Positions 1 through 30,120 of a DNA stretch of 32,000 nt are shown piece by piece. The DNA is from Candidatus Pelagibacter ubique HTCC1062 (GTDB lineage Bacteria; Pseudomonadota; Alphaproteobacteria; Pelagibacterales; Pelagibacteraceae), in contig NC_007205.1 in assembly GCF_000012345.1 (NCBI RefSeq), positions 900,001 to 932,000 on the forward strand. Direction: 5' to 3'. The translations under genes were made by a program, and so were the position numbers. Below the pieces are notes generated by a model. The model made no database searches, had not been told where the DNA came from, and was given only the letters and a program-made list of their open reading frames with translations. Position 1 is the first letter of the stretch. Each line of letters starts with the position of its first letter.

Positions 1-1
1 C

Positions 2-3000
2 ACTAGTTTTGATTTTACAGTAAATGATGGCGATGCAGATAGTGCCTCAGCTAATACAATTACAGTCAATGTAACAGCAGTTAACGATGCACCTGTTGCA
101 GATAACGAAACTAATTCAGTCAATGAAGATGCAACATTAACCGTTACCGATGGAACTTCAGATGTTTTACATGGAGACACTGATACTGAAAATGATGCAT
201 TAACCGTTACCCAAATTGCAGTAACAGGTGCATCTGCTTCATCAGTTGCAGGAAGTAGTACTTACAATAGTAACGGAACATCAAAAACAGGTACTTATGG
301 TACTTTAGTAATTGGTGCGGATGGTACTTATACTTATACAGCAGATCAATCAGCTGCTGATGACCTTGATGCTGGAGATACCGCAACCGATAGTTTTACT
401 TACACGGTTTCAGATGGAACCGCAACGGATACTGCAACAATTACAATAACAGTGACAGGTATCAATGATGTACCAGAAGCTGCAGATAAAACTGTAACTA
501 CAAATGAGGATACAGCTTATGTATTTTCAGCATCAGATTTTGGCTACACAGATGCAGATGATGATGATGCGTTAGTAAGTGTAAAAATTACAGGATTAGA
601 ATCTGCTGGTGCTTTACAATATAACAATGGATCAGCTTGGGTAGATGTAACTGAAAATCAAGTGATAACAGCAACGGATATCGGTAATAATAAATTGAGA
701 TTTAACCCAGCTGCAAATGAAAATGGATCTTCTTACACTAGTTTTGATTTTACAGTAAATGATGGCGATGCAGACAGTGCCTCAGCTAATACAATTACAG
801 TCAATGTAACAGCAGTTAACGATGCACCAACTGCAAGAGGTGACACTGGTATTGTAAATGAAGATGTAACGTTAACAGTTTCTAATAGTAGTAATGCAAC
901 AACAAGTGTTACTGCAGCTTCATTTGTTAGATCTAAATCTTTAGGGGATGCAGGATATCAAAGTCAGGAAACAAAATTTAGTCCTGATGGAACAAAAATG
1001 TTTGTGCTTGATACTTATCAAAATACAAATGAAATTCATCAATATACATTAACAACCGCCTTTGATATTTCTAGTGCTTCATTTGATGGTGCAGATGAAA
1101 CTTTTGACCTTAGTAATGAGAATTCTTCATCGAGTAATTTCACATTTAATAATGATGGAACCAAATTCTATTCAGCTTATTCGGGTAGATTATATGAATA
1201 TGACGTATCAACTGCTTATGATATTTCCACAAGTTCTTATAATAATAATTTCTTTGATTTAATACTGGAGTACCCAAATACTCGTAATATGGGTAGTGGT
1301 GTAAACGTAGCATTTAATAGCGATGGAACCAAATTATTTGCGCTAGATGCACAACAACGTGAAGTGCATGAATACTCTCTTTCAACTGCCTTTGATGTAA
1401 CTTCAGCATCTCGTACAAATAATTATGTAAGTGTTGGCACTCAAGAAGCAAGTCCATACGGTTTTGCATTTAGCAATGATGGAAAAAAAATGTTTATATC
1501 TGGATTGGGAAAGGATGTTAATGAATATACACTCTCAACTGGTTTTGACTTATCATCTACTTTTGAGTTTGTAGGTAGTTTTGATGTTTCATCTAAAGAT
1601 TGGTATCCACTCGGTATTACATTTAACAATGATGGTACAAAAATGTTTGTGACAGGCTCACAACAAGATAAACTTTTTGAATATTCGCTTACTACTCCTT
1701 TCAGCTTAATAGATGTATCAGGTGAACATTCAGGAGATGTCATTAACACAAGTTCAACAGATAATTATGATACAGACCCTGAGGGCGACGCACTAACGGT
1801 TACAACTTACTCTCATACATCAGCAACAGATCAAGATGGGGGTAGTATATCTTCAACAAGCAGTACTGGAACAGCTGGAACCAACAATGTTACAGGTTAT
1901 TATGGAACATTGGATTTAGAAGGTAATGGTTCTTACACTTATACTGCAGATCTAACAGTAACTCAGGCCTTAGATTCAGGAGATACTGTAACAGATATAT
2001 TTACTTATACTGTAGATGATGGAAATGGTGGAACTGATACAGTAACTATAACAATTACAGTAATTGGTATGAATGATGCTCCAGTTGCACAAAATGATGT
2101 TGGAGTTATTGTCGAAGATGGAACTTTAACAGTTTCAAATGGTGCTAATGCCAATGTTTCAGGTTCTTATGATGCAACAGGTGAACATTCTGGTGATGTA
2201 ATTGATACTAGTTCAAGTTCTCATACAGATAGTGATGCCGATGCTAGTGCATCTCTAACAGTTTCAGCAATTAGAACAGGCTCAAGCGAAGGTTCAGGAA
2301 CCGCTGGTTCAATTGGTTCAGCTTTAACGGGTACTTATGGTCAATTAACCATTGCAGCAGATGGCTCTTATTCTTATGTAGCTAATCAAGATGCAGCGGT
2401 AGGTGACTCAGTCACAGAATCATTTAATTACACATTATCAGATGGAACAGCAACAGACATTGGAGTAATTACAATTACAATTCTTGGAGTTAATGATGCA
2501 GGTTTCATTAAAGAAGGTGGAACTTTAACTGTTGCAAATAGTGCAGCCGCTAACTCTGGAGCAAGCACCGGTAATCATACTGGAGATATTACTGATAATG
2601 GTAGCAATATTACTAGTATCACTGCAACGACAGCAGGTGGAAATGCACAAACAACTTTTTCAAGTAACTCTGAAACAGTGACAGGTGAGTACGGTACTTT
2701 AACAATTAACTCTGATGGTTCTTACTCTTATGTTGCAAACTCAAATATATCAGGCCTTGATGCAGGAGATGCAAATATAAAGGATGTCTTCACTTATATC
2801 GTTTCAGATGGCTCCACTACATCTACTGCAACCCTTACAATGAATATTATTGCTAGCCAAGATCTAACTGCACGAGATGATAATGGTACTGTAAATGAAG
2901 ATGCAACGTTAGAAGTTGATGATGGTGATAATTTAACAACTGTTGCACCAGCATCTTACGATGATAGCGATAGCTTTACTATTGCAGGTTCAGATTCAAA

Positions 3001-6000
3001 TCCTGTTACTACTCAAAGTACTTTTAACGATTTACTTTTTAATCCTGATGGAACAAAAATGTACACATTAGGATCTGCTTCTGGTCTCTCTGGTAGAAGC
3101 CTTTTTCAATACACATTATCAATTCCTTTTGACGTATCAACTGCTTCAGTTTCAAGTAATGATAATGCTGATGTTGGAGGCTCATGGACTACAGACAACG
3201 AAGCTATGAGATTTAATAATGACGGAACAAAGCTTTTTGTTCTTTTTGATTCTCCTAATCAAAATACTTCAAGTTATATGTATCAATACACTTTAAGCAC
3301 CCCTTACGATATTACCAGCACTGTAACAGCGGGTAATTCCCTCCGGTTAGGGAATCAGTATAAAAATTATAGAACATTTCTTTTTAATGACGATGGTTCA
3401 GAGATGTTTATTAGTGAAGTTAGTGGTATATACAAATATACTTTAAGTACTTCTTTTGATACTTCAACTGCTTCAAAAACTTCTTCATATTTGTCTGCAA
3501 GTGTTACTGGTATGCAATATAATAACGATGGTACAAAGTTATTTACAGTTTATCAAACAACAACAATTGGTTCTACAGCAAAAATATCACAGTGGTCATT
3601 GTCAACTGCTTATGATCTTATGACTGCAAGTTCAAATAGCACCTATTTTGATACTGGTGAAGCTACTGGTTCTCTTGGTAATGGAGTCCCTACTCAATTT
3701 ATCACTTTTAACAATGATGGATCAAAATTCTTTAGTTTTAATGGTAGTAGTGATCCAGCAAAAATTAAAGAATGGAATCTAGCTTCACCTTTTAATGTAG
3801 TAAATGTTAGCGGCGAACATTCAGGAGATGTCATTAACACAAGTTCAACTGCTAATTATGATACAGACCCTGATAGCGATACTCTTACAGTTACTGCGAT
3901 TAGAACAGGATCAAGTGAGGGATCGGGTACCGTAGGATCTGTTGGTTCAGCTTTAACAGGAACATACGGTCAATTAACAATTGCTGCAAATGGATCATAT
4001 ACCTATGTAGCAAATCAAGATGCAGCGGATGCATTGGATCCAGGTGATGTGGTAACTGACACTTTTAATTATACAGTTTCAGATGGACAAGGTGAAACGG
4101 ATATTGCAGTTTTAACTATTACTGTTAATGGAATTAATGATACACCTGTTGCAGATGCTGAAACAGGTTCAGTTGATACAACTCAAACTTTAACAGTCAC
4201 TGATGGTACTTCAGATCTTTTACATGGGGATACGGATGCAGATGCTAGTGCTTCATTAAGTGTATCGAGTATTGTTGCAACCACAGCAAGTGGAAGCGCA
4301 ACTGCTGTTAATCCAGGAACTGCTTATAATTCAGGTTACACATCAGTTACTGGCAGTAAGGGAACTTTGAGAGTTGGTGCAGACGGTACTTATCAATACA
4401 TTGCAGGTTCAAGTACTGGTACCGATGTTTTTACTTACACATTATCAGATGGAACAGCAACACATACAGCTACTTTAACAATTACAGTTAATAGTAGTAA
4501 CAATGCTCCTTCAGCTGTTGCAGATACTGATAGTGTTAATGAAGATGCAACAGTTACTCAAAGCTCAGGTTCAGGTTTATTAAATGCAGATGATTCAGAT
4601 GCTGATGGTGATAGTTTAACGGTTACTCAAATTAAAAAAGATGGTGGAAGTAATTCATCCGTATCTGGAGGAAGCTCATATAATTCAAGCGGAACATCAG
4701 TCACAGGAACCTATGGAACATTAACGGTTGGAGCTGATGGAACTTATACATATGTTGCGGATCAAGCTGCAGCTGATGCTTTAGATGCAAGCGACACTGT
4801 TACAGATGTATTTACTTATACTATTTCAGACGGCAATGGTGGAACAGATACTGCAAATTTAACTATTACAGTCACAGGTGTTAATGATGCACCTTCAGCT
4901 ACAAATGACACAGGGTCAGTTAATGAAGATGCAACTTTAACAGTTTCAACAGCATCAAGTGGTGTAACTCAAGATAATGATACAGATGCGGACGCCGATG
5001 ATAGCGCATCATCATTGGTTATTACTCAAATTAAAAAAGATGGTGGATCAAATAGTTCAGTTAGTGGAGGAACCAATCATAGCAACGGAACTTCGGTTAC
5101 AGGAACTTATGGGACATTAGTCATTGGTGCTAATGGAACTTATACTTATGTAGCTGATCAAGATGCAGCGGATGCATTAGATGCAAGCGACACTGTTACA
5201 GATGTATTTACTTATACAGTTTCAGATGGAAATGGTGGAACAGATACTGCCAATATTACAATTACTGTTACAGGAGTGAACGATGACCCAATTGGAGTTA
5301 ATGATACAGATAGTGTTAACGAAGATGCAACTATAACTGAAAGCTCAGGATCAGAATTATTAGTTGCTGATGATACAGATGCAGATGATAGTTCATCTTT
5401 AACGGTGACACAAATTAAAGTCACAGGTGGATCAAATAGTTCTGTTGCTGGAAGTAGTACTTATAATAGTAATTTTACAACAGTTACTGGAACTTATGGA
5501 ACATTAAAAGTTGGTGCTGATGGATCTTATACTTATGTTGCAGATCAAGCTGCAGCGGATGCACTAGATGTTGGTGATAATGTGACAGATAGTTTTACTT
5601 ATACAGTCTCAGATGGAACAGCAACATCTACAGCAACATTAATAATTACAGTAACTGGTATCAATGATGTACCAGTTGCAGTTAATGATACAGATGCTGT
5701 AAATGAAGATGCAACTATAACTGAAAGCTCAGGATCAGAATTATTAGTTGCTGATGATACAGATGCAGATGATAGTTCATCTTTAACGGTGACACAAATT
5801 AAAGTCACAGGTGGATCAAATAGTTCTGTTGCTGGAAGTAGTACTTATAATAGTAATTTTACAACAGTTACTGGAACTTATGGAACATTAAAAGTTGGAG
5901 CTGATGGATCTTATACTTATGTTGCAGATCAAGCAGCAGCTGATGCGCTAGATGCAAGTGATACTGTGACAGATAGTTTTACTTATACCGTATCAGATAA

Positions 6001-12000: not shown

Positions 12001-15000
12001 ATTAAAAGTTGGTGCTGATGGTACTTACACTTACGTTGCAGATCAAAGTGCAGCTGATGATTTAGATGCTTCAGATACTGCAACAGATAGTTTCACTTAT
12101 ACAGTTTCAGACGGAACAGCTACTGACACTGCAACATTAATCTTTACAGTGACAGGAATTAACGATGCTCCTGTAGCAGTTAACGATAGCGATGTAGTTA
12201 ATGAGGACGCAACAGTAACACAAACTTCAGGCTCAAGTTTATTAATGGCAGATGATAGTGATGCTGATGATGATGATAGTTTTACTGTTACACAAATTGC
12301 ACTAACAGGTGGATCAAACAGTTCAGTTGCAAGCTCAAGTTCTTACAATAGTAATTTTACTTCAATTACTGGAACTTATGGAACATTAAAAGTTGGTGCT
12401 GATGGTACTTACACTTACGTTGCAGATCAAAGTGCAGCTGATGATTTAGATGCTTCAGATACTGCAACAGATAGTTTCACTTATACAGTTTCAGACGGAA
12501 CAGCTACGGATACAGCTACATTAATCTTTACAGTGACAGGTATCAATGATGCTCCCGTTGCAGTCAACGATACTGATGCATTAAATGAAGATGCCACAGT
12601 AACCAGAAGTTCAGGCTCAAGTTTATTAATGGCAGATGATAGTGATGCTGATGATGATGATGCATTTACAGTAACTCAAATTGCAGTAACAGGTGGATCA
12701 AACAGTTCAGTTGCAAGCTCAAGTTCTTATAATTCAAGTGGGACTCAAGTTACAGGTACATACGGTACACTTACTGTTGGTGCTGATGGTACTTATACAT
12801 ATGTAGCCGATCAAAGTGCAGCTGATGATTTAGATGCCTCAGATTCTGTAACAGATAGTTTCACTTACACAATTTCAGATGGTGATACTACTGACACTGC
12901 AACATTAATCTTTACAGTAACCGGAATTAATGATGTGCCAACTGCATCTGATAATGCAGTTACTACAAACGAAGATACCCCTTATGTATTTTCAGCATCA
13001 GATTTTGGATACACAGATGCAGATGATGATGATGCATTAGTAAGTGTAAAAATTACAACTTTAGAAGATGCTGGTGCATTACAATATTATAATGGTAGCG
13101 CTTGGGTAGATGTAACTTTAAATCAGGTGATAACAGCAACAGACATTGCTGCTAATAAATTAAGATTAAATCCTACTGCAGATGAGAATGGATCTCCTTA
13201 CACTACTTTTAATTTTACAGTAAATGATGGGGATGCAAGTAGTTCAACACCTAATACTATTACGGTAAATGTAACAGCAGTTAATGATACTCCAACAGCT
13301 ACTGATGATACAGCTAGTGTTAATGAAGATGCTACTACAACCATTTCATCTGCATCAAGTGGAGTAATAGATGACAATGATACAGATCCAGATTCATCAG
13401 ATACTTTAACTTTAACTAACGTTGCTCATACAAATGGAAACACAGAAAGCGTTACATCGAGCACCACTTATTTAAATGGTCAATCAATTACTGGAACTTA
13501 TGGTGCTTTAACAGTGGGTGCTGATGGAACATATACATATGTAGCAGATCAAAGTGCTGCTGATGATTTAGATGCTTCAGATACTGCAACAGATGTCTTT
13601 ACCTATACACTATCAGATGGAACAGCAACCGATACTGCAACAATTACAATTACTATTACTGGTGTTAACGATGCTCCCGTTGCAGTCAATGATACTGATG
13701 CTGTTAACGAAGATGCAACAGTTACCAGAACTTCAGGTGATAATTTATTAATGGCAGATGATAGTGATGCTGATGATGATGATAGTTTTACCGTAACTCA
13801 AATTGCAGTAACAGGAGCTTCTAATTCTTCAGTTGCAAGCTCAAGTTCTTATAATAGCAATTTTACTTCAATTACTGGAACTTATGGAACATTAAAAGTT
13901 GGTGCTGATGGAACATACACTTACGTTGCAGATCAAAGTGCTGCTGATGATTTAGATGCTTCAGATACTGCAACAGATAGTTTCACTTATACAGTTTCAG
14001 ATGGAACAGCGACAGACACTGCAACATTAATCTTTACAGTGACAGGAATTAATGATGCTCCAGTTGCGGATAATGAAACAAATTCAGTAAATGAAGATGC
14101 AACACTTACAGTCACAGATGGAACTTCAGATGTTTTACATGGAGATACGGATGCAGATGACAGCGCATCTCTAACAGTTTCAGCAATTAGAACTGGAGCG
14201 GAAGGCGGAAGTGGAACTGCAGGCTCAATTGGTTCTGGTTTAACTGGTACTTATGGAACTTTAACTTTAGCAAGTGATGGAACATATACATATGTAGCCG
14301 ATCAAAGTGCTTCAGATGATTTAGACGCTTCAGACACTGCAACAGATGTATTTACCTATACAGTTTCAGATGGAACCGCAACGGATACAGCAACAATTAC
14401 AATTACTATTACTGGTGTTAACGATGCTCCAGTTGCAGTCAATGATACTGATGCTGTTAACGAAGATGCGACAGTTACAAGAAGTTCAGGATCAAGTTTA
14501 TTAATGGATGATGATAGTGATGCTGATGATGATGATGCATTTACAGTTACACAAATAGCAGTAACAGGTAGCTCCAATAATGCAGTTACTGCAAGCAGTA
14601 CTTATAATTCTGGTTCACCAGAAACGGTAACAGGAACTTATGGTACACTTACTGTTGGAGCTGATGGTACTTATACATATGTAGCTGATCAAAATGCTGC
14701 TGATGATTTAGATGCTTCAGACACTGCAACAGATAGTTTCACTTATACAATATCGGATGGAACAGCAACAGACACTGCAACATTAATCTTTACAGTAACT
14801 GGTGTTAATGATGTACCAGAAGCTGCAGATAAAACTGTAACTACAAATGAGGATACAGCTTATGTATTTTCAGCATCAGATTTTGGCTACACAGATGCAG
14901 ATGACGATGATGTGTTAGTAAGTGTAAAAATTACAACATTAGAAAGTGCTGGTGCATTACAATATTATAATGGTAGCGCTTGGGTAGATGTAACCTTAAA

Positions 15001-17707
15001 TCAAGTAATAACTGCAACCGATATCTCAAATAATTATTTAAGATTAAATCCTACTGAAAATGAAACAGGCTCACCCTATACAACAATTGGTTTTTCTGTA
15101 AATGATGGAGATGCGGACAGTTCATCTTCGTATACAATGACCGTTAATGTAATCAATACAAATGATGCTCCAGTAGCTGACAACGAAATTAATTCAGTGA
15201 ATGAAGATGCAACGGTCACAGTCACCGATGGAACTTCAGATGTTTTACATGGAGATACGGATGCTGATAGTGACACTTTAACAGTAACTCAAATTGCAGT
15301 AACAGGTGGATCCAATAGTTCAGTTGCTGGAAGTAGTACTTATAACAGCAATTTTACCTCAGTTACTGGAACTTATGGAACATTAAAAATAGGAGCTAAC
15401 GGAACATACACTTACGTTGCAGATCAATCAGCGTCAGACGATTTAGATGCCTCAGATACTGCAACAGATAGTTTCACTTACACAGTTTCAGATAGTAATG
15501 CGACAGACACTGCAACATTAATCTTTACAGTAACTGGTGTTAATGATGTGCCAACAGCATCAAACAATGCAGTTTCAACAGAAGAGGATACACCATATGT
15601 ATTTTCAACATCTGATTTTGGCTACACAGATGCAGATGATGACGATGCATTAGTAAGTGTAAAAATTACAACATTAGAAGACGCTGGTGCGTTGCAGTAT
15701 TACAATGGATCAAACTGGGTAGATGTAACCTTAAATCAAGTAATAACTGCAACAGATATCTCAAATAGTTATTTAAGATTAAATCCTACTGCAGATGAAA
15801 ATGGATCTCCTTATACAACAATTGGTTTCTCTGTAAATGATGGCGATGCAGATAGTGCTTCAAGTTACACTATGACAATTAACGTAACCGCTATAAATGA
15901 TAATCCAGTTGCTGATAATGAAACGAATACCGCAACAGAAGGCACTACTACAACAGTCACAGACGGGACTTCAGATATTCTCTATGGCGACACAGATACA
16001 GAGGGAGATACATTAGAAATATCAGGCATAAGAACAGGAACAGAGTCTGGCTCTGGAACATTTGGAGCAATAGCTACACCTTTAACTGGTACTTATGGAT
16101 CTTTAACAATTAATTCAGATGGAACATATAGTTATACGCCTAATGATGTTTTAGGTAGTGGAGAAACTGGAATAGATTATTTTACATATACAGTTTCAGA
16201 CGGTAATGGTGGAACAGATACAGGACAACTTACTATAACGGTTACAGGTGCTAATGATGCCCCAGTTGGTGTTAATGATAGTAATACAATTGATATAGCA
16301 GCAACTTCAACTTTAACAGTCACAAATGACTCTGAAAAAGATGTGTTAACTAACGATACTGATCCAGACTCAAATGATACATCAATAGTAACCGAGATAA
16401 GAACAGGATCAACTGAAGGCTCAGGTACTGCTGGAACATTAGGGGAGGCATTAATTGGAACTTATGGTTCTTTGATAATGAACTCAAATGGTAGTTACAC
16501 ATATATAGTTAATGAAGGTTTAAAAGATACATTGGATCCAGGTGAAATAGTTTATGAATATTTTAATTATACAGTTAGAGATGGTAGTGGTGTTACGGAT
16601 ACAAGTTCAATTGTATTAAAATTACAAAATGGTGGTGGTGTTGTTAAAGAAATTAGAGAAAAGAAAGCTGAAAGAATTATTATAAATCAAGCTAGAATGG
16701 AAGCAAGAGTTCAAGTTGAAAATACTTTCACAGAACTAAATCAATCAACAGAATTTGATTTAAATAATTTTGAATTTGAACAAACTGCAAGAAAAACAGA
16801 TTATTCCCAAGGTCTTAAATTAGTTGATTTAGTTGCCGAAACAGACTCTCTTCAAATTTCTGAAGGAGAACTTTCAAACCTTAAAGTTAAAGACAAACAA
16901 GAAGGTTTAAAATTGAAATTTGGTGTCATGAATGAAGCCGACAATGAGATTGTTAAATTTGATGGAAAAATGAGTGATGGTTCTGCATTACCTGAGTGGA
17001 TTAAAATTAATCCTAAAACAGGTCAAACAACCACAAATATTCCAGAAGGTGTAGATAAAGTTGAAATTATGATTATTGCAACGGATAAAAACAATGAAAC
17101 TCGAGAAATTGCAGTTGAGATTGATCCTGAAAAAATAAAACAAGATAGAAAAATTATCAAACAAGCAAAAAGAACAAATTCTTCAATTACTGTTAATGAA
17201 GATGGTACGGTTAATATTGTAAAACAAAATGAAGATGGATTAGTTGAAAGATCATTTAACAAAACATTAAATTTTAACAATCCAGCAGATATCAATGAAA
17301 TTATTGAAACGTTTAAACCAGAAACAATTTTTCAACTTAAACCTTTAAATATTGGAAATGATTTAATTATAGATTTACCCAATGAGCTAAAAGGTAATTT
17401 TAATAATACTAAACTTGTTCTTAAAGATGGAACCGAAGTACCTGACTGGCTTGAGTATGATCCTGTAACGGGTCAAATTATTGCAGAAAATCCACCTGAA
17501 GATGTTTCTCAATTAGAATTAAAACTTATTATTGAGCAAGATGGAAAAATTATTGTAAAAGATTTAGAAGTTGATTTACAAGAGCAAAATGTATCCCAAA
17601 ATTTTGATGGGGGTGAAAATAATAGATTTGTTACTTTAAGCGACCAATTAGATAAAGAATTTAATGATTGGGAAGATTATGGTAATGACCTTATTAATAG
17701 ACTATAA
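2..17707 (+). CDS. Giant acidic repeat protein, a candidate VCBS-type / bacterial cadherin-like surface adhesin. It is 5'-truncated by the window edge, with at least 5,901 codons in the window.
   Basis: The frame of the 452..17707 ORF stays open back to nt 2: nt 2-451 translate as ...TSFDFTVNDGDADSASANTITVNVTAVNDAPVADNETNSVNEDATLTVTDG..., the same repeat units seen downstream. The GTG at 452 is therefore internal. Stop is TAA at 17705-17707. The recurring unit ...VTGTYGTLxVGADGTYTYVADQSAADDLDASDTATDSFTYTVSDGTATDTATLIFTVTGINDAPVA matches the VCBS repeat consensus (TIGR01965 type) with cadherin-like DxNDxAP linkers. Differences between copies are mostly synonymous (GGT/GGA, AAT/AAC, ATC/ATT), which argues for a translated gene under purifying selection. 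Confidence 0.93.
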   Translation, partial: TSFDFTVNDGDADSASANTITVNVTAVNDAPVADNETNSVNEDATLTVTDGTSDVLHGDTDTENDALTVTQIAVTGASASSVAGSSTYNSNGTSKTGTYGTLVIGADGTYTYTADQSAADDLDAGDTATDSFTYTVSDGTATDTATITITVTGINDVPEAADKTVTTNEDTAYVFSASDFGYTDADDDDALVSVKITGLESAGALQYNNGSAWVDVTENQVITATDIGNNKLRFNPAANENGSSYTSFDFTVNDGDADSASANTITVNVTAVNDAPTARGDTGIVNEDVTLTVSNSSNATTSVTAASFVRSKSLGDAGYQSQETKFSPDGTKMFVLDTYQNTNEIHQYTLTTAFDISSASFDGADETFDLSNENSSSSNFTFNNDGTKFYSAYSGRLYEYDVSTAYDISTSSYNNNFFDLILEYPNTRNMGSGVNVAFNSDGTKLFALDAQQREVHEYSLSTAFDVTSASRTNNYVSVGTQEASPYGFAFSNDGKKMFISGLGKDVNEYTLSTGFDLSSTFEFVGSFDVSSKDWYPLGITFNNDGTKMFVTGSQQDKLFEYSLTTPFSLIDVSGEHSGDVINTSSTDNYDTDPEGDALTVTTYSHTSATDQDGGSISSTSSTGTAGTNNVTGYYGTLDLEGNGSYTYTADLTVTQALDSGDTVTDIFTYTVDDGNGGTDTVTITITVIGMNDAPVAQNDVGVIVEDGTLTVSNGANANVSGSYDATGEHSGDVIDTSSSSHTDSDADASASLTVSAIRTGSSEGSGTAGSIGSALTGTYGQLTIAADGSYSYVANQDAAVGDSVTESFNYTLSDGTATDIGVITITILGVNDAGFIKEGGTLTVANSAAANSGASTGNHTGDITDNGSNITSITATTAGGNAQTTFSSNSETVTGEYGTLTINSDGSYSYVANSNISGLDAGDANIKDVFTYIVSDGSTTSTATLTMNIIASQDLTARDDNGTVNEDATLEVDDGDNLTTVAPASYDDSDSFTIAGSDSNPVTTQSTFNDLLFNPDGTKMYTLGSASGLSGRSLFQYTLSIPFDVSTASVSSNDNADVGGSWTTDNEAMRFNNDGTKLFVLFDSPNQNTSSYMYQYTLSTPYDITSTVTAGNSLRLGNQYKNYRTFLFNDDGSEMFISEVSGIYKYTLSTSFDTSTASKTSSYLSASVTGMQYNNDGTKLFTVYQTTTIGSTAKISQWSLSTAYDLMTASSNSTYFDTGEATGSLGNGVPTQFITFNNDGSKFFSFNGSSDPAKIKEWNLASPFNVVNVSGEHSGDVINTSSTANYDTDPDSDTLTVTAIRTGSSEGSGTVGSVGSALTGTYGQLTIAANGSYTYVANQDAADALDPGDVVTDTFNYTVSDGQGETDIAVLTITVNGINDTPVADAETGSVDTTQTLTVTDGTSDLLHGDTDADASASLSVSSIVATTASGSATAVNPGTAYNSGYTSVTGSKGTLRVGADGTYQYIAGSSTGTDVFTYTLSDGTATHTATLTITVNSSNNAPSAVADTDSVNEDATVTQSSGSGLLNADDSDADGDSLTVTQIKKDGGSNSSVSGGSSYNSSGTSVTGTYGTLTVGADGTYTYVADQAAADALDASDTVTDVFTYTISDGNGGTDTANLTITVTGVNDAPSATNDTGSVNEDATLTVSTASSGVTQDNDTDADADDSASSLVITQIKKDGGSNSSVSGGTNHSNGTSVTGTYGTLVIGANGTYTYVADQDAADALDASDTVTDVFTYTVSDGNGGTDTANITITVTGVNDDPIGVNDTDSVNEDATITESSGSELLVADDTDADDSSSLTVTQIKVTGGSNSSVAGSSTYNSNFTTVTGTYGTLKVGADGSYTYVADQAAADALDVGDNVTDSFTYTVSDGTATSTATLIITVTGINDVPVAVNDTDAVNEDATITESSGSELLVADDTDADDSSSLTVTQIKVTGGSNSSVAGSSTYNSNFTTVTGTYGTLKVGADGSYTYVADQAAADALDASDTVTDSFTYTVSDNTWFDTATLIITVTGINDVPEAADKTVTTNEDTPYVFSANDFGYTDADDDDALVSVKITGLEDAGALQYNNGSAWVDVTENQVITATDIGNNKLRFNPAANENGSSYTSFDFTVNDGDADSASANTITVNVTAVNDAPVADDETGAVNEDATLTVTDGTSDVLHGDTDADSDTLTVTTYSHTSATNQSGGNASSANGNSGTAGTNAVVGYYGTLTLAADGTYTYAADQSAADDLDASDTATDVFTYTLSDGTATDTATITITVTGINDAPAAVNDTDAVNEDATVTRTSGDNLLMADDSDADDDDSFTVTQIAVTGGSNNAVTASSTYNSGSPETVTGTYGTLTVGANGTYTYVADQSASDDLDASDTATDSFTYTISDGTTTDTATLIFTVTGINDVPTAADKTVTTNEDTAYVFSASDFGYTDADDDDALVSVKITGLEDAGALQYNNGSAWVDVTENQVITATDIAANKLRFNPAANENGSSYTSFDFTVNDGDADSASANTITVNVTAVNDAPVADDETNSVNEDATLTVTDGSSDVLHGDTDVDSGDTLTVTTYSHTSATNQSGGNASSANGNSGTAGTNAVVGYYGTLTLAADGTYTYAADQSAADDLDASDTATDVFTYTLSDGTATDTATITITVTGINDAPVAVNDTDAVNEDATVTRTSGDNLLMADDSDADDDDSFTVTQIAVTGASNSSVASSSSYNSNFTSITGTYGTLKVGADGTYTYVADQSAADDLDLNDTATDSFTYTISDGDTTDTATLIFTVTGINDAPVAVDDTDAVNEDATVTRSSGSSLLMDDDSDADDDDAFTVTQIAVTGSSNNAVTASSTYNSGSPETVTGTYGTLTVGADGTYTYVADQNAADDLDASDTATDSFTYTISDGTATDTATLIFTVTGVNDVPEAADKTVTTNEDTAYVFSASDFGYTDADDDDVLVSVKITTLESAGALQYYNGSAWVDVTLNQVITATDIAANKLRLNPATNENGSPYTTFNFTVNDGDADSATPNTITVNVTNVNNAPVADNETNSVNEDATVTVTDGTSDVLHGDTDADSGDTLTVTQIAVTGGSNSSVAGSSAYNSNFTSVTGTYGTLKIGANGTYTYVADQSASDDLDASDTATDSFTYTVSDGTATDTATLIFTVTGINDAPVAVNDTDAVNEDATVTRTSGDNLLMADDSDADDDDSFTVTQIAVTGSSDNAVTANSTYNSGSPETVTGTYGTLTVGANGTYTYVADQNAADDLDLNDQVTDSFTYTISDGTATDTATLIFTVTGINDAPVAQNDVGVIVEDGTLTVSNGANANLSGSYDATGEHSGDIIDTSSSSHTDSDADDSASLTVTAIRVGSSEGSGTAGSIGSALTGTYGQLTIAADGSYSYVANQDEADALDAGDSVTDSFNYTLSDGTATDIGVITITILGANDAPVANNDTGSVNEDATLTVSSASSGVTQDNDTDVDGDDTVSSLTVTQIAVTGSSNSSVTSSTTYSNGTSVTGTYGTLVIGANGTYTYVADQSAADDLDLNDTATDSFTYTVSDGTTTDTATLIFTVTGINDAPVAVNDTDALNEDATVTRSSGDNLLMADDSDADDDDSFTVTQIAVTGGSNSSVNSSTTYSNGTSVTGTYGTLVVGADGSYTYEADQSAADDLDLNDQVTDSFTYTISDGTATDTATLIFTVTGINDAPVAVNDTDAVNEDATVTRSSGSSLLMADDSDADDDDAFTVTQIAVTGGSNSSVAGSSTYNNNFTSVTGTYGTLKVGADGTYTYVADQSAADDLDASDTATDSFTYTVSDGTATDTATLIFTVTGVNDVPTASDKTISTAEDTPYVFSTSDFGYTDADDDDALVSVKITTLEDAGALQYYNGSAWVDVTLNQVITATDIAANKLRLNPTADENGSPYTTIGFSVNDGDADSATPNTITVNVTAVNDAPVADNETNSVNEDATVTVTDGTSDVLHGDTDVDSGDTLTVTQIAVTGGSNSSVASSSSYNSNFTSITGTYGTLKVGADGTYTYVADQSAADDLDASDTATDSFTYTVSDGTATDTATLIFTVTGINDAPVAVNDSDVVNEDATVTQTSGSSLLMADDSDADDDDSFTVTQIALTGGSNSSVASSSSYNSNFTSITGTYGTLKVGADGTYTYVADQSAADDLDASDTATDSFTYTVSDGTATDTATLIFTVTGINDAPVAVNDTDALNEDATVTRSSGSSLLMADDSDADDDDAFTVTQIAVTGGSNSSVASSSSYNSSGTQVTGTYGTLTVGADGTYTYVADQSAADDLDASDSVTDSFTYTISDGDTTDTATLIFTVTGINDVPTASDNAVTTNEDTPYVFSASDFGYTDADDDDALVSVKITTLEDAGALQYYNGSAWVDVTLNQVITATDIAANKLRLNPTADENGSPYTTFNFTVNDGDASSSTPNTITVNVTAVNDTPTATDDTASVNEDATTTISSASSGVIDDNDTDPDSSDTLTLTNVAHTNGNTESVTSSTTYLNGQSITGTYGALTVGADGTYTYVADQSAADDLDASDTATDVFTYTLSDGTATDTATITITITGVNDAPVAVNDTDAVNEDATVTRTSGDNLLMADDSDADDDDSFTVTQIAVTGASNSSVASSSSYNSNFTSITGTYGTLKVGADGTYTYVADQSAADDLDASDTATDSFTYTVSDGTATDTATLIFTVTGINDAPVADNETNSVNEDATLTVTDGTSDVLHGDTDADDSASLTVSAIRTGAEGGSGTAGSIGSGLTGTYGTLTLASDGTYTYVADQSASDDLDASDTATDVFTYTVSDGTATDTATITITITGVNDAPVAVNDTDAVNEDATVTRSSGSSLLMDDDSDADDDDAFTVTQIAVTGSSNNAVTASSTYNSGSPETVTGTYGTLTVGADGTYTYVADQNAADDLDASDTATDSFTYTISDGTATDTATLIFTVTGVNDVPEAADKTVTTNEDTAYVFSASDFGYTDADDDDVLVSVKITTLESAGALQYYNGSAWVDVTLNQVITATDISNNYLRLNPTENETGSPYTTIGFSVNDGDADSSSSYTMTVNVINTNDAPVADNEINSVNEDATVTVTDGTSDVLHGDTDADSDTLTVTQIAVTGGSNSSVAGSSTYNSNFTSVTGTYGTLKIGANGTYTYVADQSASDDLDASDTATDSFTYTVSDSNATDTATLIFTVTGVNDVPTASNNAVSTEEDTPYVFSTSDFGYTDADDDDALVSVKITTLEDAGALQYYNGSNWVDVTLNQVITATDISNSYLRLNPTADENGSPYTTIGFSVNDGDADSASSYTMTINVTAINDNPVADNETNTATEGTTTTVTDGTSDILYGDTDTEGDTLEISGIRTGTESGSGTFGAIATPLTGTYGSLTINSDGTYSYTPNDVLGSGETGIDYFTYTVSDGNGGTDTGQLTITVTGANDAPVGVNDSNTIDIAATSTLTVTNDSEKDVLTNDTDPDSNDTSIVTEIRTGSTEGSGTAGTLGEALIGTYGSLIMNSNGSYTYIVNEGLKDTLDPGEIVYEYFNYTVRDGSGVTDTSSIVLKLQNGGGVVKEIREKKAERIIINQARMEARVQVENTFTELNQSTEFDLNNFEFEQTARKTDYSQGLKLVDLVAETDSLQISEGELSNLKVKDKQEGLKLKFGVMNEADNEIVKFDGKMSDGSALPEWIKINPKTGQTTTNIPEGVDKVEIMIIATDKNNETREIAVEIDPEKIKQDRKIIKQAKRTNSSITVNEDGTVNIVKQNEDGLVERSFNKTLNFNNPADINEIIETFKPETIFQLKPLNIGNDLIIDLPNELKGNFNNTKLVLKDGTEVPDWLEYDPVTGQIIAENPPEDVSQLELKLIIEQDGKIIVKDLEVDLQEQNVSQNFDGGENNRFVTLSDQLDKEFNDWEDYGNDLINRL
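920..1715 (+). other. Five-bladed beta-propeller-like module 1, nested inside a VCBS-like module of the giant protein
   Basis: Five ~50-aa repeats share the motif F(S/N)xDG(T/K)K(M/L)F...(H/Y/N/F)(Q/E)Y(T/S/D)L(S/T)T(A/G/P)FD(I/V/L)S(S/T). The cores are FSPDGTKMFVLD..IHQYTLTTAFDISSAS, FNNDGTKFYSAY..LYEYDVSTAYDISTSS, FNSDGTKLFALD..VHEYSLSTAFDVTSAS, FSNDGKKMFISG..VNEYTLSTGFDLSST and FNNDGTKMFVTG..LFEYSLTTPFSLIDVS. Boundaries are approximate. Confidence 0.6.
2990..3810 (+). other. Five-bladed beta-propeller-like module 2, nested inside a VCBS-like module of the giant protein
   Basis: A second set of five blades is present: FNPDGTKMYTLG..LFQYTLSIPFDVSTAS, FNNDGTKLFVLF..MYQYTLSTPYDITST, FNDDGSEMFISE..IYKYTLSTSFDTSTAS, YNNDGTKLFTVY..ISQWSLSTAYDLMTAS and FNNDGSKFFSFN..IKEWNLASPFNVVNVS. 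As in module 1, it is followed by SGEHSGDVINTSST.NYDTDP. Boundaries are approximate. Confidence 0.6.
5321..5898 (+). repeat. Adjacent tandem duplication with a 384-nt period
   Basis: 5321-5514 equals 5705-5898 (194 bp identical by eye). Both encode EDATITESSGSELLVADDTDADDSSSLTVTQIKVTGGSNSSVAGSSTYNSNFTTVTGTYGTLKVG. Confidence 0.85.
6512..6792 (+). repeat. 281-bp direct repeat, copy A (identical by eye to 7652..7932), part of a ~1.14-kb super-repeat
   Basis: Both copies encode ...DTLTVTTYSHTSATNQSGGNASSANGNSGTAGTNAVVGYYGTLTLAADGTYTYAADQSAADDLDASDTATDVFTYTLSDGTATDTATITITVTG. The offset is 1,140 nt. The flanking segments 6841-6914 and 7981-8054 are also identical. Confidence 0.85.
7652..7932 (+). 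repeat. 281-bp direct repeat, copy B (partner of 6512..6792)
   Basis: See copy A. Confidence 0.85.
7973..8169 (+). repeat. 197-bp dispersed intragenic repeat (partner 13703..13899, offset 5,730 nt)
   Basis: The stretch gttaacgaagatgcaacagttaccagaacttcaggtgataatttattaatggcagatgatagtgatgctgatgatgatgatagttttaccgtaactcaaattgcagtaacaggagcttctaattcttcagttgcaagc... is identical in both places by eye. Confidence 0.8.
8343..8913 (+). repeat. Long intragenic direct repeat, copy A (~571 bp, identical by eye to 14442..15012)
   Basis: I aligned 8343-8913 against 14442-15012 base by base and found no mismatch. The offset is 6,099 nt (2,033 codons, in frame). Identity breaks at 8914 (a) versus 15013 (t). 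Confidence 0.85.
11919..12507 (+). repeat. Adjacent tandem duplication with a 384-nt period
   Basis: 11919-12123 equals 12303-12507 (205 bp identical by eye). Both encode TGGSNSSVASSSSYNSNFTSITGTYGTLKVGADGTYTYVADQSAADDLDASDTATDSFTYTVSDGTAT. Confidence 0.85.
14442..15012 (+). repeat. Long intragenic direct repeat, copy B (partner of 8343..8913)
   Basis: Same comparison as for copy A. The repeat spans the end of one VCBS module, a whole VCBS module, and the first ~2/3 of a cadherin-like module. Confidence 0.85.
16630..17707 (+). other. Non-repetitive C-terminal region of the giant protein (~359 aa): a charged helical segment plus two dystroglycan-type cadherin-like / He_PIG-like motifs
   Basis: The repeat array ends at ...VLKLQNGGGVVKEIREKKAERIIINQARMEARVQ. 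Two related segments follow: DGSALPEWIKINPKTGQTTTNIPEGVDKVEIMIIATD (about nt 16975-17090) and DGTEVPDWLEYDPVTGQIIAENPPEDVSQLELKLIIEQD (about nt 17425-17545). Both resemble the LP.WL.(F/I).P.TG.(L/I).G.P signature of CADG/He_PIG Ig-like domains. I saw no GGxGxDxUx RTX nonapeptides. Confidence 0.55.
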
Positions 17708-17721
17708 AATAACTTAGCCTC

Positions 17722-21865: not shown

Positions 21866-21942
21866 ATATCATTAGTTTATTAAACCTAAAATGGACGTCT
21901 TTTGATATAAAAAGATACATCAAATCAATTATAATTTTAAAA

Positions 21943-22563: not shown

Positions 22564-22650
22564 AAATTTATATGTTTTCTTAAAATGGATAAATAATTAA
22601 CATAAAATACTTCTTTCCATTTTCATATTTAATGTCTATAAGATACTACC

Positions 22651-28000: not shown

Positions 28001-28017
28001 AAAATTTAAAAAACTGC

Positions 28018-30087: not shown

Positions 30088-30120
30088 GATAAAAATATAT
30101 AACACATTATTTTGTTCAAA

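What the first reader, a model, noticed from the sequence alone, without database searches (positions are those of the whole stretch)
2..17707. Giant ORF of more than 5,900 codons with no Cys seen and a strongly acidic composition, occupying over half the window of an otherwise streamlined genome
The ORF is open from the first in-frame codon of the window, so its true length is larger. If the host genome is SAR11-sized (~1.3 Mb), this single gene is more than 1.3% of it, a striking investment alongside 1-nt gene overlaps elsewhere in the window. Reading the translation by eye I found no cysteine at all. Asp, Thr, Ala, Ser, Gly, Val and Asn dominate, with DADDDD, DTDADxD and cadherin-like xNDAPxA linkers that are classic Ca2+-binding features, and seawater holds about 10 mM Ca2+. 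If each of the ~40 modules folds as an Ig/cadherin-like beta-sandwich of about 4-5 nm, the extended molecule would be on the order of 150-200 nm. That is comparable to the width of a SAR11 cell. From memory, unverified here, cultured Ca. Pelagibacter genomes carry one ORF of more than 7,000 codons with no assigned function.
Basis: partly seen in the sequence, partly recalled or inferred. Interest (0 to 1): 0.65.

Follow-up and report, generated by a model that had tools for sequence, protein, structure and literature searches.

The report
Giant cysteine-free surface fibre gene, SAR11
More than half of this window is one intact gene for a huge, acidic, cysteine-free chain of calcium-type adhesin modules in a SAR11 ocean bacterium, and it always sits beside an undescribed envelope-spanning gene set (outer-membrane channel, three adaptor proteins, a membrane protease) that probably exports or processes it.

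Summary
Frame 2 is open from nt 2 to a stop at 17705-17707: 5,901 codons, 0 Cys (about 48 expected), pI 4.05. It holds 42 VCBS/bacterial-cadherin modules, two propeller-like inserts and a 358-aa non-repeat tail. The organism is SAR11 (Pelagibacteraceae).

The 5' end lies outside the window. In the closest relative and in all complete homologues the protein starts with a conserved LEPR-XLL leader plus a DUF4347 domain, which models as caspase-like with a conserved His/Cys pair.

The new result is the context. In about 60 SAR11 genomes, and in Colwellia, Marinomonas, Azospirillum and others, such giant Cys-poor proteins sit next to four genes: a TolC-family channel, two HlyD-type adaptors, and an adaptor fused to an M50 intramembrane zinc protease. 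The catalytic motifs of that protease are invariant in 81 of 81 homologues. There are no RTX repeats, no autotransporter barrel, and no ABC exporter in the cluster.

Best reading: a secreted, Ca2+-stiffened surface fibre of about 150-250 nm, handled by a type-1-like machine that includes a leader-type protease. Its length varies widely between relatives (about 1,300 to over 5,900 aa). What the fibre does for the cell (adhesion or a protective coat) is unresolved.

The parts
2..17707 (+). 3' 5,901 codons plus stop of the giant gene. The 5' end lies outside the window.
   Evidence: Open frame, 0 Cys, pI 4.05. VCBS, Cadherin_4, Big_9 and tandem-95 HMM hits.
2..16630 (+). Array of 42 beta-sandwich modules of two alternating types: a roughly 128-140-aa VCBS/Cadherin_4 type and a 118-aa Cadherin_3/5 type carrying DADDDD. 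They are joined by xNDAPxA linkers.
   Evidence: Self-profile segmentation, alignment A3, PDB homologues 6xi1, 9y9w, 5k8g and 6x5v. DNA identity between copies is 71-90%.
1139..1726 (+). Insert 1: about 4 blade-like repeats (FNNDGTK[LM]F...YEYSLSTxFD). Beta-propeller-like, a candidate ligand-binding domain.
   Evidence: Gap in the module array at aa 394-568, sequence, sub-threshold SGL, Vgb_lyase and PD40 hits.
3029..3796 (+). Insert 2: about 5-6 blade-like repeats of the same kind.
   Evidence: Gap at aa 1079-1261, sequence, sub-threshold WDR55 and DUF5122 propeller hits.
16631..17704 (+). Non-repeat, K/E-rich C-terminal tail of 358 aa, conserved in all SAR11 homologues at 24-98% identity.
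   Evidence: The AF2 model shows a helix, two Ig/dystroglycan-cadherin-like sandwiches and a terminal helix, with mean pLDDT 58.8. Foldseek returns only tandem Ig/cadherin hits and no beta-barrel.
16907..17122 (+). Tail Ig-like domain 1 (motif LPEWIKINPKTG).
   Evidence: pLDDT 74-83. Weak He_PIG and RibLong hits. Invariant G117, P121, W123, T130 and G131.
17327..17575 (+). Tail Ig-like domain 2 (motif VPDWLEYDPVTG).
   Evidence: pLDDT 70-80. Invariant G267, P271 and W273.
17627..17704 (+). Extreme C-terminal motif F[VIA][SP]Lx[DE]Q[LI]x7-8[DN]YGxx[LIF], a predicted helix. Candidate secretion or docking signal.
   Evidence: Conserved between SAR11, Colwellia, Marinomonas and Halopseudomonas. 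Invariant F333, Q339, L340, Y350 and G351.
17722..18435 (+). Adaptor 1: a 237-aa HlyD/RND-MFP-type periplasmic protein with a cleavable signal peptide. It starts 14 nt after the giant gene's stop.
   Evidence: HlyD_3 and HlyD_D23; TIGR01730 at 103 bits against a cut-off of 94.9. Signal peptide seen in the sequence. Syntenic in all SAR11 loci.
18432..19766 (+). Adaptor 2: 444 aa, with a cytoplasmic N-domain of about 180 aa (weakly GAF-like), one TM segment and a HlyD periplasmic part. It overlaps adaptor 1 by 4 nt.
   Evidence: Weak matches to EmrA and LipC.
19763..21865 (+). 700-aa fusion: a conserved cytoplasmic N-domain, a polytopic M50 (site-2-protease-type) zinc protease (HELGH at aa 195; NVSPFMRFDG at aa 289-298) and a HlyD-type periplasmic adaptor.
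   Evidence: Peptidase_M50 plus HlyD. daptide_HExxH at 131.7 bits, below cut-off. Motifs invariant in 81 of 81 homologues. JGI name 'putative peptide zinc metalloprotease protein'. At least 2,901 50%-identity clusters at E<=1e-30.
21943..22563 (+). Type IV pilin-like gene of 206 aa. It is a neighbour and its membership of the system is doubtful, because it is absent at this position in most other SAR11 loci.
   Evidence: N_methyl and TIGR02532 hits. Present in sibling contigs L083 and L085-L090 but not found in L001-L080.

Best explanation
The ORF encodes the C-terminal 5,901 residues of a giant extracellular or cell-surface fibre of SAR11, probably about 6,700-7,300 aa in full. The family architecture is as follows.
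- A basic N-terminal leader (..[LF]IxALE[PQ]R[IVLM][ML][LF]DGA[AG]..).
- A DUF4347 alpha/beta domain, which holds the only conserved Cys.
- A variable number of Ca2+-type VCBS/cadherin-like beta-sandwich modules, 42 here, with two propeller-like inserts.
- A tail with two Ig-like domains.
- A conserved C-terminal helix motif.

Shown: the domain content, the lack of Cys and the acidity. Also shown is strict synteny with a five-gene module that recurs across Alpha- and Gammaproteobacteria: TolC-family channel, giant gene, HlyD-type adaptor, HlyD-type adaptor with a cytoplasmic domain, and adaptor fused to an M50 intramembrane zinc protease with intact catalytic motifs.

Inferred: the protein crosses the envelope unfolded in one step through a channel built from the TolC-like protein and the adaptors. 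This would resemble type 1 secretion but have no ABC gene in the cluster. The M50 domain, which resembles YydH and daptide-type leader proteases, recognises and probably cleaves one of the two conserved termini. The N-terminal leader is the better candidate: it is 75% identical between SAR11 and Colwellia, whereas the protease itself is only about 40% identical. The Asp-rich modules then fold and stiffen on meeting about 10 mM Ca2+ in seawater, giving a rod of roughly 150-250 nm.

The role on the cell is either adhesion through the propeller or Ig-like domains, or a protective spacer against phages and grazers. This is not resolved. The extreme length polymorphism between close relatives favours a surface structure under diversifying pressure.
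For: - Domain identity.
- Cys-free and acidic composition.
- Tail and C-terminal motif conservation.
- N-terminal leader plus DUF4347 in every homologue whose 5' end is visible. These include the closest relative L081 (91.7% nt identity over 9.3 kb) and Colwellia, Marinomonas and L020.
- Synteny of giant gene, adaptor, adaptor and M50-adaptor in every SAR11 locus with enough upstream sequence.
- TolC-family gene next to the 5' end of the giant gene wherever that end is visible.
- The same trio plus TolC-like gene plus a Cys-poor (0-3 Cys), DTSGANV-rich giant ORF in Chromatiales, Halopseudomonas, Azospirillum, Rhodospirillaceae, Colwellia and Marinomonas.
- HExxH and NxxPxxxxDG invariant in 81 of 81 homologues, with the M50 half far more conserved than the adaptor half.
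- 14-nt gap and 4-nt overlaps, and no terminator-like site between the genes.
- Joint decay of the giant gene and adaptor 2 in strain Uisw_114.
- No fused ABC exporter in 80 of 81 loci. The complete cluster in L081 is flanked by sox genes on one side and, by the window, by pilin and pyrG on the other.
- Length range of about 1,300 aa to over 5,900 aa among relatives.
Against: - No experiment or expression data were available.
- No energy source (ABC, RND or MFS) is encoded in the cluster. An ABC exporter elsewhere in the genome cannot be excluded, because no whole SAR11 genome could be scanned.
- The window lacks the N-terminus, so leader and DUF4347 are inferred from relatives.
- Cleavage by the M50 domain is pure inference. 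The idea that its cytoplasmic N-domain is a leader-binding (RRE-like) domain found no support in Pfam or PDB sequence searches.
- The tail model is of low confidence overall (pLDDT 58.8).
- Ca2+ binding is by homology and motif only.
- Some 'short' homologues come from short-read assemblies that may have collapsed repeats. One, L084/P0204, clearly has a junk N-terminus.
Confidence: 0.6

Rival explanations
1. It is an ordinary type 1 secretion (LapA/SiiE-like) adhesin. Export would be driven by a HlyB-type ABC transporter encoded elsewhere in the genome. The neighbouring adaptors and M50 protease would be accessory, for example a release or retention control analogous to LapG/LapD.
For: The modules are homologous to extender repeats of solved T1SS adhesins. 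TolC-family and HlyD-family genes are adjacent. The protein is Cys-free and acidic with a conserved C-terminal segment. One locus, L067, has a fused ABC exporter 3 kb downstream.
Against: There are no GGxGxD RTX repeats. No fused ABC exporter is present in 80 of 81 loci, although T1SS ABC and MFP genes are normally co-encoded. The N-terminus is LEPR-XLL plus DUF4347 rather than a LapA-type retention module, and no LapG or LapD was seen. Three adaptor-type proteins instead of one is not the T1SS pattern.
Confidence: 0.25
2. The TolC-like, adaptor and M50 genes form an unrelated efflux or peptide-export system that merely neighbours the giant gene. The giant protein would reach the surface by another route, or not at all.
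For: NCBI and JGI name the neighbours generically as efflux adaptor subunits and peptide zinc metalloprotease. The M50 domain resembles small-peptide (RiPP) leader proteases.
Against: Synteny is kept from SAR11 to Gammaproteobacteria while flanking genes differ completely. The gene junctions are translationally coupled. The giant gene and adaptor 2 decay together in Uisw_114. The conserved leader and C-terminal motifs of the giant protein co-occur with the trio.
Confidence: 0.06
3. It is a pseudogene or an assembly artefact of a repeat array.
For: Repeat arrays are prone to mis-assembly. Related assemblies show fragmented or collapsed versions (L081, L082, L084, L016, L070).
Against: 5,901 codons carry no stop, while the other two frames carry 797 and 429. 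Repeat copies are only 71-90% identical, so each is unique in sequence. The 3' 9.3 kb is collinear with an independent contig at 91.7% identity. The tail and motifs are under clear conservation.
Confidence: 0.02
4. It is a type V autotransporter adhesin, like the large 'autotransporter adhesin' genes reported in coastal SAR11 and in HVR1 of HTCC1062.
For: SAR11 genomes do carry autotransporter adhesins next to pilin genes, and a pilin gene lies downstream here.
Against: No autotransporter beta-barrel or beta-helix appears in any HMM search or in the tail model. The published SAR11 autotransporters are 5-9.5 kb and have a barrel, a linker and beta-helices.
Confidence: 0.01

Closest known systems
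RTX/LapA-type giant adhesins secreted by type 1 systems (LapA, MpIBP, Aeromonas large adhesin 6xi1, SiiE)
   Same: They are also megadalton, acidic and Cys-poor, with tandem Ca2+-type Ig/cadherin-like extender modules. The repeat profile here hits 6xi1 at E 1e-28 and MpIBP 5k8g/6x5v. Both have non-repeat domains embedded in the array, and TolC-family and HlyD-family genes next to the structural gene.
   Different: This protein has no RTX nonapeptide block (0 GGxGxD). The cluster has no ABC exporter gene. It has three adaptor-type proteins, one of them fused to an M50 intramembrane protease. The N-terminus is LEPR-XLL plus DUF4347 rather than a LapA-type retention module, and there is no LapG or LapD.
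LEPR-XLL (NF012209, 'LEPR-8K') / DUF4347 (PF14252) giant proteins as catalogued by NCBIfam and Pfam
   Same: Complete SAR11, Colwellia and Marinomonas homologues carry exactly this N-terminus.
   Different: These catalogue entries carry no function. Neither the link to a TolC, adaptor and M50 gene set nor the caspase-like model of DUF4347 was found in any searchable paper.
Leader-processing membrane M50 proteases of peptide (RiPP) export loci (YydH-type, K16922; daptide HExxH protease NF041824)
   Same: It is a polytopic HExxH / NxxPxxxxDG zinc protease encoded next to its presumed substrate and export components. JGI names it 'putative peptide zinc metalloprotease protein'. The match to daptide_HExxH has E 3.5e-38.
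   Different: The score of 131.7 bits is far below the family cut-off of 300. The protease is fused to a HlyD-type adaptor, and the presumed substrate is a protein of 1,300 to over 6,000 aa rather than a short peptide.
Giant cell-surface proteins of marine Synechococcus (SwmB, 10,791 aa)
   Same: A giant repetitive surface protein in an abundant marine picoplankter, tied in the literature to motility and grazing evasion.
   Different: Homology was not tested here. The host is a cyanobacterium, and no M50-adaptor link is known to me.
SAR11 type V autotransporter adhesins (HVR1 of HTCC1062; coastal Pelagibacteraceae, K19231)
   Same: A large surface adhesin candidate in SAR11, near pilin genes and in or next to hypervariable regions.
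   Different: Those have a beta-barrel translocator and a beta-helix passenger and are 5-9.5 kb. This gene has neither feature.

Membership tests
VCBS / bacterial cadherin-like tandem-repeat proteins (TIGR01965, PF17803, PF17963, NF012211) | Tandem modules matching the family HMMs above curated cut-offs | tested here: met
   Cadherin_4 607.5 and 715.3 bits (cut-off 25.1). VCBS 534.8 and 587.6 bits (cut-off 15.5). tandem-95 382.2 and 380.7 bits (cut-off 90)..
RTX / LapA-type T1SS adhesins | Block of RTX nonapeptide repeats (GGxGxD) before the C-terminal signal | tested here: not met
   0 matches in 5,901 aa. 0-1 in the non-SAR11 giant ORFs.
RTX / LapA-type T1SS adhesins | Dedicated HlyB-type ABC exporter co-encoded with the adaptor and channel | tested here: not met
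   None in the window. A Walker-A/LSGGQ scan of 81 loci found only stand-alone 255-340-aa ATPases several kb away and one fused exporter, in L067. The L081 cluster is flanked by sox genes. The rest of the genome was not searchable.
RTX / LapA-type T1SS adhesins | Adjacent membrane-fusion (HlyD) and TolC-family genes | tested here: met
   Three HlyD-type proteins lie downstream. An OEP-family gene lies at the 5' side in relatives. The TolC-like gene itself is outside the window.
RTX / LapA-type T1SS adhesins | Extender of Ca2+-dependent Ig-like repeats homologous to solved adhesin extenders | tested here: met
   The profile of 25 modules hits 6xi1 (E 1e-28), 9y9w, 5k8g and 6x5v. Ca2+ binding itself was not tested.
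RTX / LapA-type T1SS adhesins | N-terminal retention module with a LapG site, plus LapG/LapD | tested here: not met
   Relatives start with LEPR-XLL plus DUF4347. No LapG- or LapD-like gene is present in the window or the loci. The window's own N-terminus is missing.
LEPR-XLL / DUF4347 giant proteins | N-terminal LEPR-XLL motif (NF012209) followed by DUF4347 (PF14252) | not testable with these tools
   The 5' end lies outside the window. The feature is met in the closest relative L081 and in L011 (LEPR-8K 17.5 bits against cut-off 17; DUF4347 E 7e-52). It is also met in L072, L080 and L020.
BapA/Bap/LapF large adhesins (NF045619 adhes_GNV_Cterm) | Match to the family model above cut-off across the model | tested here: inconclusive
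   Summed scores of 493 and 534 bits exceed the cut-off of 180. They come from 15-16 repeated matches, and the best stretches shown cover only profile positions 124-235 and 97-229 of 458. The model's C-terminal part is not matched by the tail.
Type V autotransporter adhesins | C-terminal beta-barrel translocator and beta-helical passenger | tested here: not met
   No such Pfam or NCBIfam hit. The tail model consists of Ig-like sandwiches and helices.
M50 / site-2-protease family (neighbour gene 19763-21865) | HExxH in a TM helix plus NxxPxxxxDG in a later TM helix | tested here: met
   HELGH at aa 195-199 and NVSPFMRFDG at aa 289-298. PF02163 at 36.5 bits, cut-off 27.2. Invariant in 81 of 81 homologues.
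Daptide biosynthesis intramembrane metalloprotease (NF041824) | Score above the equivalog cut-off | tested here: not met
   131.7 bits against a cut-off of 300.

The most novel reading that the evidence does not exclude
The locus exemplifies an undescribed envelope-spanning machine dedicated to giant LEPR-XLL/DUF4347 proteins. Its parts are a long TolC-family channel, three HlyD-type adaptors, and an M50 intramembrane protease fused to one of the adaptors. It would export and leader-process megadalton, Cys-free, Ca2+-folding fibres without a cluster-encoded ABC ATPase, possibly using extracellular Ca2+-driven folding as the ratchet. The machine is present in SAR11, the most abundant bacterial lineage in the sea. 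The fusion protein family comprises at least 2,901 50%-identity clusters at E<=1e-30. Its N-terminal DUF4347 would be a caspase-like (clan CD-type) His/Cys domain for autoprocessing or retention.
Probability: 0.3. Interest if true: 0.85.

Novelty: new variant of a known kind. Interest (0 to 1): 0.62.

Why it matters
SAR11 cells are the textbook case of genome streamlining, yet this lineage spends 1.2-1.4% of its genome on a single gene, more if the missing 5' end is counted. It also keeps a dedicated five-gene module for that gene across deep SAR11 divergences. That argues for a strong, unrecognised selective role at the cell surface of the ocean's most abundant heterotroph, such as attachment, phage or grazer avoidance, or cation and nutrient capture.

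If the co-conserved TolC, adaptor and M50 set is the export and processing machine, it would be a new variant of one-step secretion. It would have a built-in intramembrane leader protease and no dedicated ATPase gene. The question can be tested in culturable Marinomonas and Colwellia, which carry the same module.

It would also give first functional hypotheses for two 'unknown' catalogue entries, LEPR-XLL and DUF4347.

Tried and rejected
1. Full-length homologues by protein search. The tool returned only proteins up to about 1.75 times the query length. The true N-terminus of this exact gene was therefore not recovered, and the source contig is hidden in look-ups.

2. The 'autotransporter adhesin' of coastal SAR11 (Tucker/Freel 2025) and the HVR1 autotransporters (Wilhelm 2007). 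Both papers were read, and these are a different gene family with a barrel and a beta-helix.

3. RTX motifs: none.

4. ABC exporter in the cluster: none, apart from one distant case in L067.

5. RRE/PqqD-like leader-binding idea for the N-domain of the M50 fusion. There was no Pfam hit and no significant PDB sequence hit. The idea is untested rather than refuted.

6. The 1,631-aa 'short allele' P0204/L084, which shares an identical adaptor 1 and is 96% identical to the giant protein over the aligned part. It has a junk N-terminus and 4.7x short-read coverage, so I treat it as a collapsed assembly.

7. Higher GC of the repeat region (36-38% against 22-31%) as a sign of transfer. The D/T/A/G/S/V-rich composition is a plausible cause, and I did not pursue it.

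8. Rfam gathering-threshold search of the window and terminator scan of 17000-23000: nothing.

9. Ten literature searches found no description of an M50-adaptor system, of DUF4347 function, or of the SAR11 giant gene.
Full report
**1. Observation**

Frame 2 of the + strand is open from nt 2 to the stop at 17705-17707, which is 5,901 sense codons. Frames 1 and 3 of the same stretch contain 797 and 429 stops. With the region's base composition, the chance of no stop in 5,901 codons is about 1e-199.

The translation has no cysteine. The 14 other genes of the window have 0.81% Cys, so about 48 are expected and the Poisson P is about 1e-21. Thr, Asp, Ser, Ala, Val, Gly and Asn make up 74% of residues. 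pI is 4.05 and basic minus acidic residues is -773. The 1-nt and 4-nt gene overlaps downstream are also real.

Repeat copies are 71-90% identical at DNA level, and none is near-identical. The 3' 9.3 kb of the gene plus the next two genes is collinear, at 91.7% identity, with an independent metagenome contig (L081). I see no sign of an assembly artefact or a pseudogene.

**2. Organism**

The downstream proteins are 85% identical to Ca. Pelagibacter sp. HIMB1493 and HIMB1748. All of the roughly 60 best genome hits are Pelagibacteraceae.

The exact adaptor 1 protein occurs in 384 blocks of public assemblies, so this is an abundant population. The exact adaptor 1 and M50 proteins also lie on a contig of 1,308,759 nt. 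From memory, unverified here, that is the published genome size of Ca. P. ubique HTCC1062.

The 17.7 kb in the window is 1.23-1.36% of the SAR11 genome or contig sizes seen.

**3. Anatomy of the protein**

A self-derived profile splits residues 1-5543 into 42 modules. There are two alternating types:
- a 128-140-aa VCBS/Cadherin_4 type (..NEDAT..GDTDAD..LTVT..GTYGTL..ADGTYTY..FTYTVSDG..TDTAT..TVTGxNDAPVA);
- a 118-aa Cadherin_3/5 type carrying DADDDD.

Pfam and NCBIfam scores are far above cut-offs: Cadherin_4 607 and 715 bits, VCBS 535 and 588 bits, tandem-95 382 and 381 bits. A profile of 25 modules finds solved relatives among giant adhesins. These are 6xi1 (four tandem extender repeats, E 1e-28), a 'cadherin domain protein' 9y9w, and the Marinomonas ice-binding adhesin 5k8g/6x5v.

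Two gaps in the array (aa 394-568 and 1079-1261) consist of blade-like repeats of about 45-50 aa (FNNDGTK[LM]F...YEYSLSTxFD). Only sub-threshold beta-propeller matches were found for them. They are candidates for ligand-binding inserts.

The last 358 residues are not repeats. They are K/E-rich and conserved in all SAR11 homologues at 24-98% identity. They model as a helix, two Ig/dystroglycan-cadherin-like sandwiches (pLDDT 70-83), an acidic linker and a terminal helix. Foldseek returns only tandem Ig or cadherin structures and no barrel.

The extreme C-terminus carries a motif, F[VIA][SP]Lx[DE]Q[LI]x7-8[DN]YGxx[LIF]. It is shared with the giant proteins of Colwellia, Marinomonas and Halopseudomonas. 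There is no GGxGxD RTX repeat.

**4. The missing N-terminus**

Complete homologues are visible in many SAR11 loci, with lengths of 1,649 to 2,373 aa. In the closest relative, L081, the gene spans about 5,650 codons but is broken by frameshifts typical of long-read errors.

All of them begin with a basic stretch and the motif [LF]IxALE[PQ]R[IVLM][ML][LF]DGA[AG]. This matches NCBIfam LEPR-XLL at 17.5 bits against a cut-off of 17. A low-complexity linker follows, and then DUF4347 (PF14252, E 7e-52). The same N-terminus occurs in Colwellia and Marinomonas.

The 24-residue leader is 75% identical between SAR11 locus L022 and Colwellia (my count on the alignment). The M50 fusion protein is only about 40% identical between the window and Colwellia.

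DUF4347 holds the only conserved Cys of these proteins. An AF2 model built on 62 sequences has a confident core (pLDDT 87-97). Its best PDB matches are mostly caspases-3, -6, -7 and -8. These matches are weak (E about 2e-3, probability up to 1.0, about 124 columns), and a few Rossmann-type folds are interleaved among them. The conserved pattern is an invariant His-Gly at the end of one strand and a nearly invariant Tyr-Gly-Cys at the end of the next-but-one strand, 43 residues later. That is the clan-CD pattern as I know it. This is a lead, not a demonstration. One solved 'DUF4347 domain-containing protein' exists (9qpe chain G), and no function is recorded in the papers I could search.

Window position 3500 corresponds to a point about 830 codons into the L081 gene, and everything before it in the window is extra modules. 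I therefore estimate at least 6,700 aa for this gene.

**5. Genomic context, the main new result**

Three genes follow the stop codon after 14 nt, coupled to each other by 4-nt overlaps and with no terminator-like site:
- a 237-aa HlyD/RND-MFP-type adaptor with a signal peptide;
- a 444-aa adaptor with a cytoplasmic domain of about 180 aa (weakly GAF-like) and one TM segment;
- a 700-aa fusion of a conserved cytoplasmic domain, a polytopic M50 zinc protease and a HlyD-type adaptor.

A scan of one genome per species returned more than 545 relatives of the fusion protein. In every SAR11 locus with enough upstream sequence, the order 'giant gene with this tail, adaptor, adaptor, M50-adaptor' is kept, down to 46% identity of the fusion protein. 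Wherever the 5' end of the giant gene is visible, a long (843-905 aa) TolC-family gene lies next to it. It is usually divergent, but in L081 it is on the same strand.

Outside SAR11 the same trio sits beside giant, Cys-poor (0-3 Cys), DTSGANV-rich ORFs without RTX motifs, and a TolC-like gene accompanies it in most of these loci. The lineages include Chromatiales, Halopseudomonas, Azospirillum, Rhodospirillaceae, Colwellia and Marinomonas.

The flanking genes differ from lineage to lineage: photolyase, Ldh_2 or sox genes elsewhere, and pilin and pyrG here. The five genes therefore travel together as a unit.

In strain Uisw_114 both the giant gene and adaptor 2 are split. In Uisw_116 the giant gene is short and split.

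HExxH and NxxPxxxxDG are invariant in 81 of 81 homologues, and almost all invariant positions lie in the N-domain and protease half. The fusion family is large: 2,901 50%-identity clusters at E<=1e-30, and nearly all of the top 150 hits span about 700 aa.

Only generic names exist in public annotation: 'efflux RND transporter periplasmic adaptor subunit', 'peptidase M50' and 'putative peptide zinc metalloprotease protein'. The nearest curated model is the daptide leader protease, at 131.7 bits against a cut-off of 300.

No ABC exporter belongs to the module. A motif scan of 81 loci found only stand-alone ATPases several kb away, plus one fused exporter in L067.

**6. Mechanism**

Shown:
- It is a giant, intact, conserved, Cys-free, acidic tandem array of adhesin-type beta-sandwich modules with conserved termini.
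- It is genetically linked to a TolC-family channel, three adaptor-type proteins and an apparently active intramembrane zinc protease.

Inferred, with my probabilities:
- The protein is extracellular or surface-bound and Ca2+-stiffened (about 0.85).
- The adjacent module is its export and processing machine (about 0.65).
- The M50 domain cleaves the N-terminal leader, by analogy with YydH and daptide-type proteases and because the leader and the protease half are the most conserved parts (about 0.4).
- Export needs no dedicated ABC transporter (about 0.3).

The lack of Cys fits a protein that never folds in the oxidising periplasm, and the Asp-rich linkers fit folding after exit into about 10 mM Ca2+. 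At 4-5 nm per module, which is an assumption, 42 modules give roughly 170-210 nm, and more with the missing part.

The function on the cell is open. It could be adhesion through the propeller-like and Ig-like domains, or a protective spacer. Length varies strongly between relatives:
- about 1,300 aa (P0234, P0239-P0242);
- 1,649-2,373 aa;
- about 5,650 aa (L081);
- more than 5,901 aa here.

The repeat order also differs from the 92%-identical relative. Both suggest rapid change, although some short forms may be short-read collapses.

**7. Comparison with what is known**

The protein works most like the RTX/LapA class of T1SS adhesins, but it fails three defining features that were tested: RTX repeats, a co-encoded ABC exporter, and a LapA-type retention module with LapG/LapD. 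I therefore do not file it as a member of that class.

It belongs to the VCBS/bacterial-cadherin repeat proteins. By its relatives' N-termini, it also belongs to the uncharacterised LEPR-XLL/DUF4347 giant proteins.

It is not the 'autotransporter adhesin' described for coastal SAR11 or for HVR1.

In ten searches I found no paper describing the M50-adaptor module or a function for DUF4347.

**8. Verdict**

The giant gene itself is a new member of a known kind, since such proteins are already deposited under generic names. Its conserved partnership with a TolC, adaptor and M50-protease module that has no ABC gene is, as far as I could find, an undescribed variant of one-step secretion. Hence my rating of 'new variant of a known kind' and moderate-to-high interest.

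Noticed in passing
window 19763-21865; loci L001-L080: The roughly 700-aa fusion of a cytoplasmic domain, an M50 protease and a HlyD adaptor is a large family. It has 10,998 50%-identity clusters at E<=1e-3 and 2,901 at E<=1e-30, and nearly all of the top 150 hits are full length. HExxH and NxxPxxxxDG are invariant in 81 of 81 homologues. There is no specific curated family and no literature that I could find.
   Followed up: partly
relatives only: L011 1207-1900, L081 6344-7100, P0078, P0085: DUF4347, the N-terminal domain of this protein family, models confidently (core pLDDT 87-97). Its best PDB matches are mostly caspases. It has an invariant His-Gly and a nearly invariant Tyr-Gly-Cys at the ends of two strands, 43 residues apart. 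This makes it a candidate clan-CD-like protease or retention domain.
   Followed up: partly
window 1139-1726 and 3029-3796: Two inserts of blade-like repeats (FNNDGTK[LM]F...YEYSLSTxFD) interrupt the module array. They have only sub-threshold beta-propeller matches and may be ligand-binding domains.
   Followed up: partly
window 21943-22563; L085 6594-8000; L086 5916-8747: A type IV pilin-like gene follows the module. In sibling contigs with the identical adaptor 1, this spot holds a variable cassette: a second pilin, or a pilin, a bacterial globin, a SpoIIE phosphatase and a pilin. That gene content matches the list given for hypervariable region HVR4 of HTCC1062 by Wilhelm et al. 2007. The module therefore abuts a hypervariable spot.
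   Followed up: partly
L016 (Ca. Pelagibacter sp. Uisw_114) 2721-10004; L070 (Uisw_116) 4276-7934: In these two complete genomes the giant gene is short and split (388+997+94 aa and 798+413 aa). In Uisw_114 adaptor 2 is also split (358+94 aa). This is either decay of the whole system or sequencing errors.
   Followed up: no
L062 267-2798 (-), L070 1386-4103 (-), L064 5682-7787: The TolC-family protein of the module is unusually long (702-905 aa). OEP-domain matches lie only in its N-terminal part. The Chromatiales version carries a weak, sub-threshold match to a SPOR (peptidoglycan-binding) domain at its C-terminus (19.3 bits, cut-off 21). The SAR11 extension has no match.
   Followed up: no
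window 18432-18980: The cytoplasmic N-domain of adaptor 2 gives weak GAF-like matches (GAF_2 E 0.09, CodY-GAF E 0.12). It might be a small-molecule sensor, an idea prompted by LapD-type control.
   Followed up: no
L020 (CAYXZV010000035.1): A contig binned as 'Methanosarcinales archaeon' carries the bacterial module. Its M50 fusion is 53% identical to the window's, and it also has a TolC-like gene and a LEPR-XLL N-terminus. It is almost certainly a mis-binned proteobacterial contig.
   Followed up: no
L084 1212-6107 (P0204): A 1,631-aa 'allele', 96% identical to the window protein over the aligned part, has a nonsensical Cys-rich N-terminal extension and comes from a short-read contig at 4.7x coverage. 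This is an example of repeat collapse and a warning for length comparisons that use SAGs and MAGs.
   Followed up: yes
window 1-16000 versus 16000-32000: The repeat region has 36-38% GC, against 22-31% for the rest of the window. The codons for D, T, A, G, S and V could account for this, so I did not take it as a sign of transfer.
   Followed up: no
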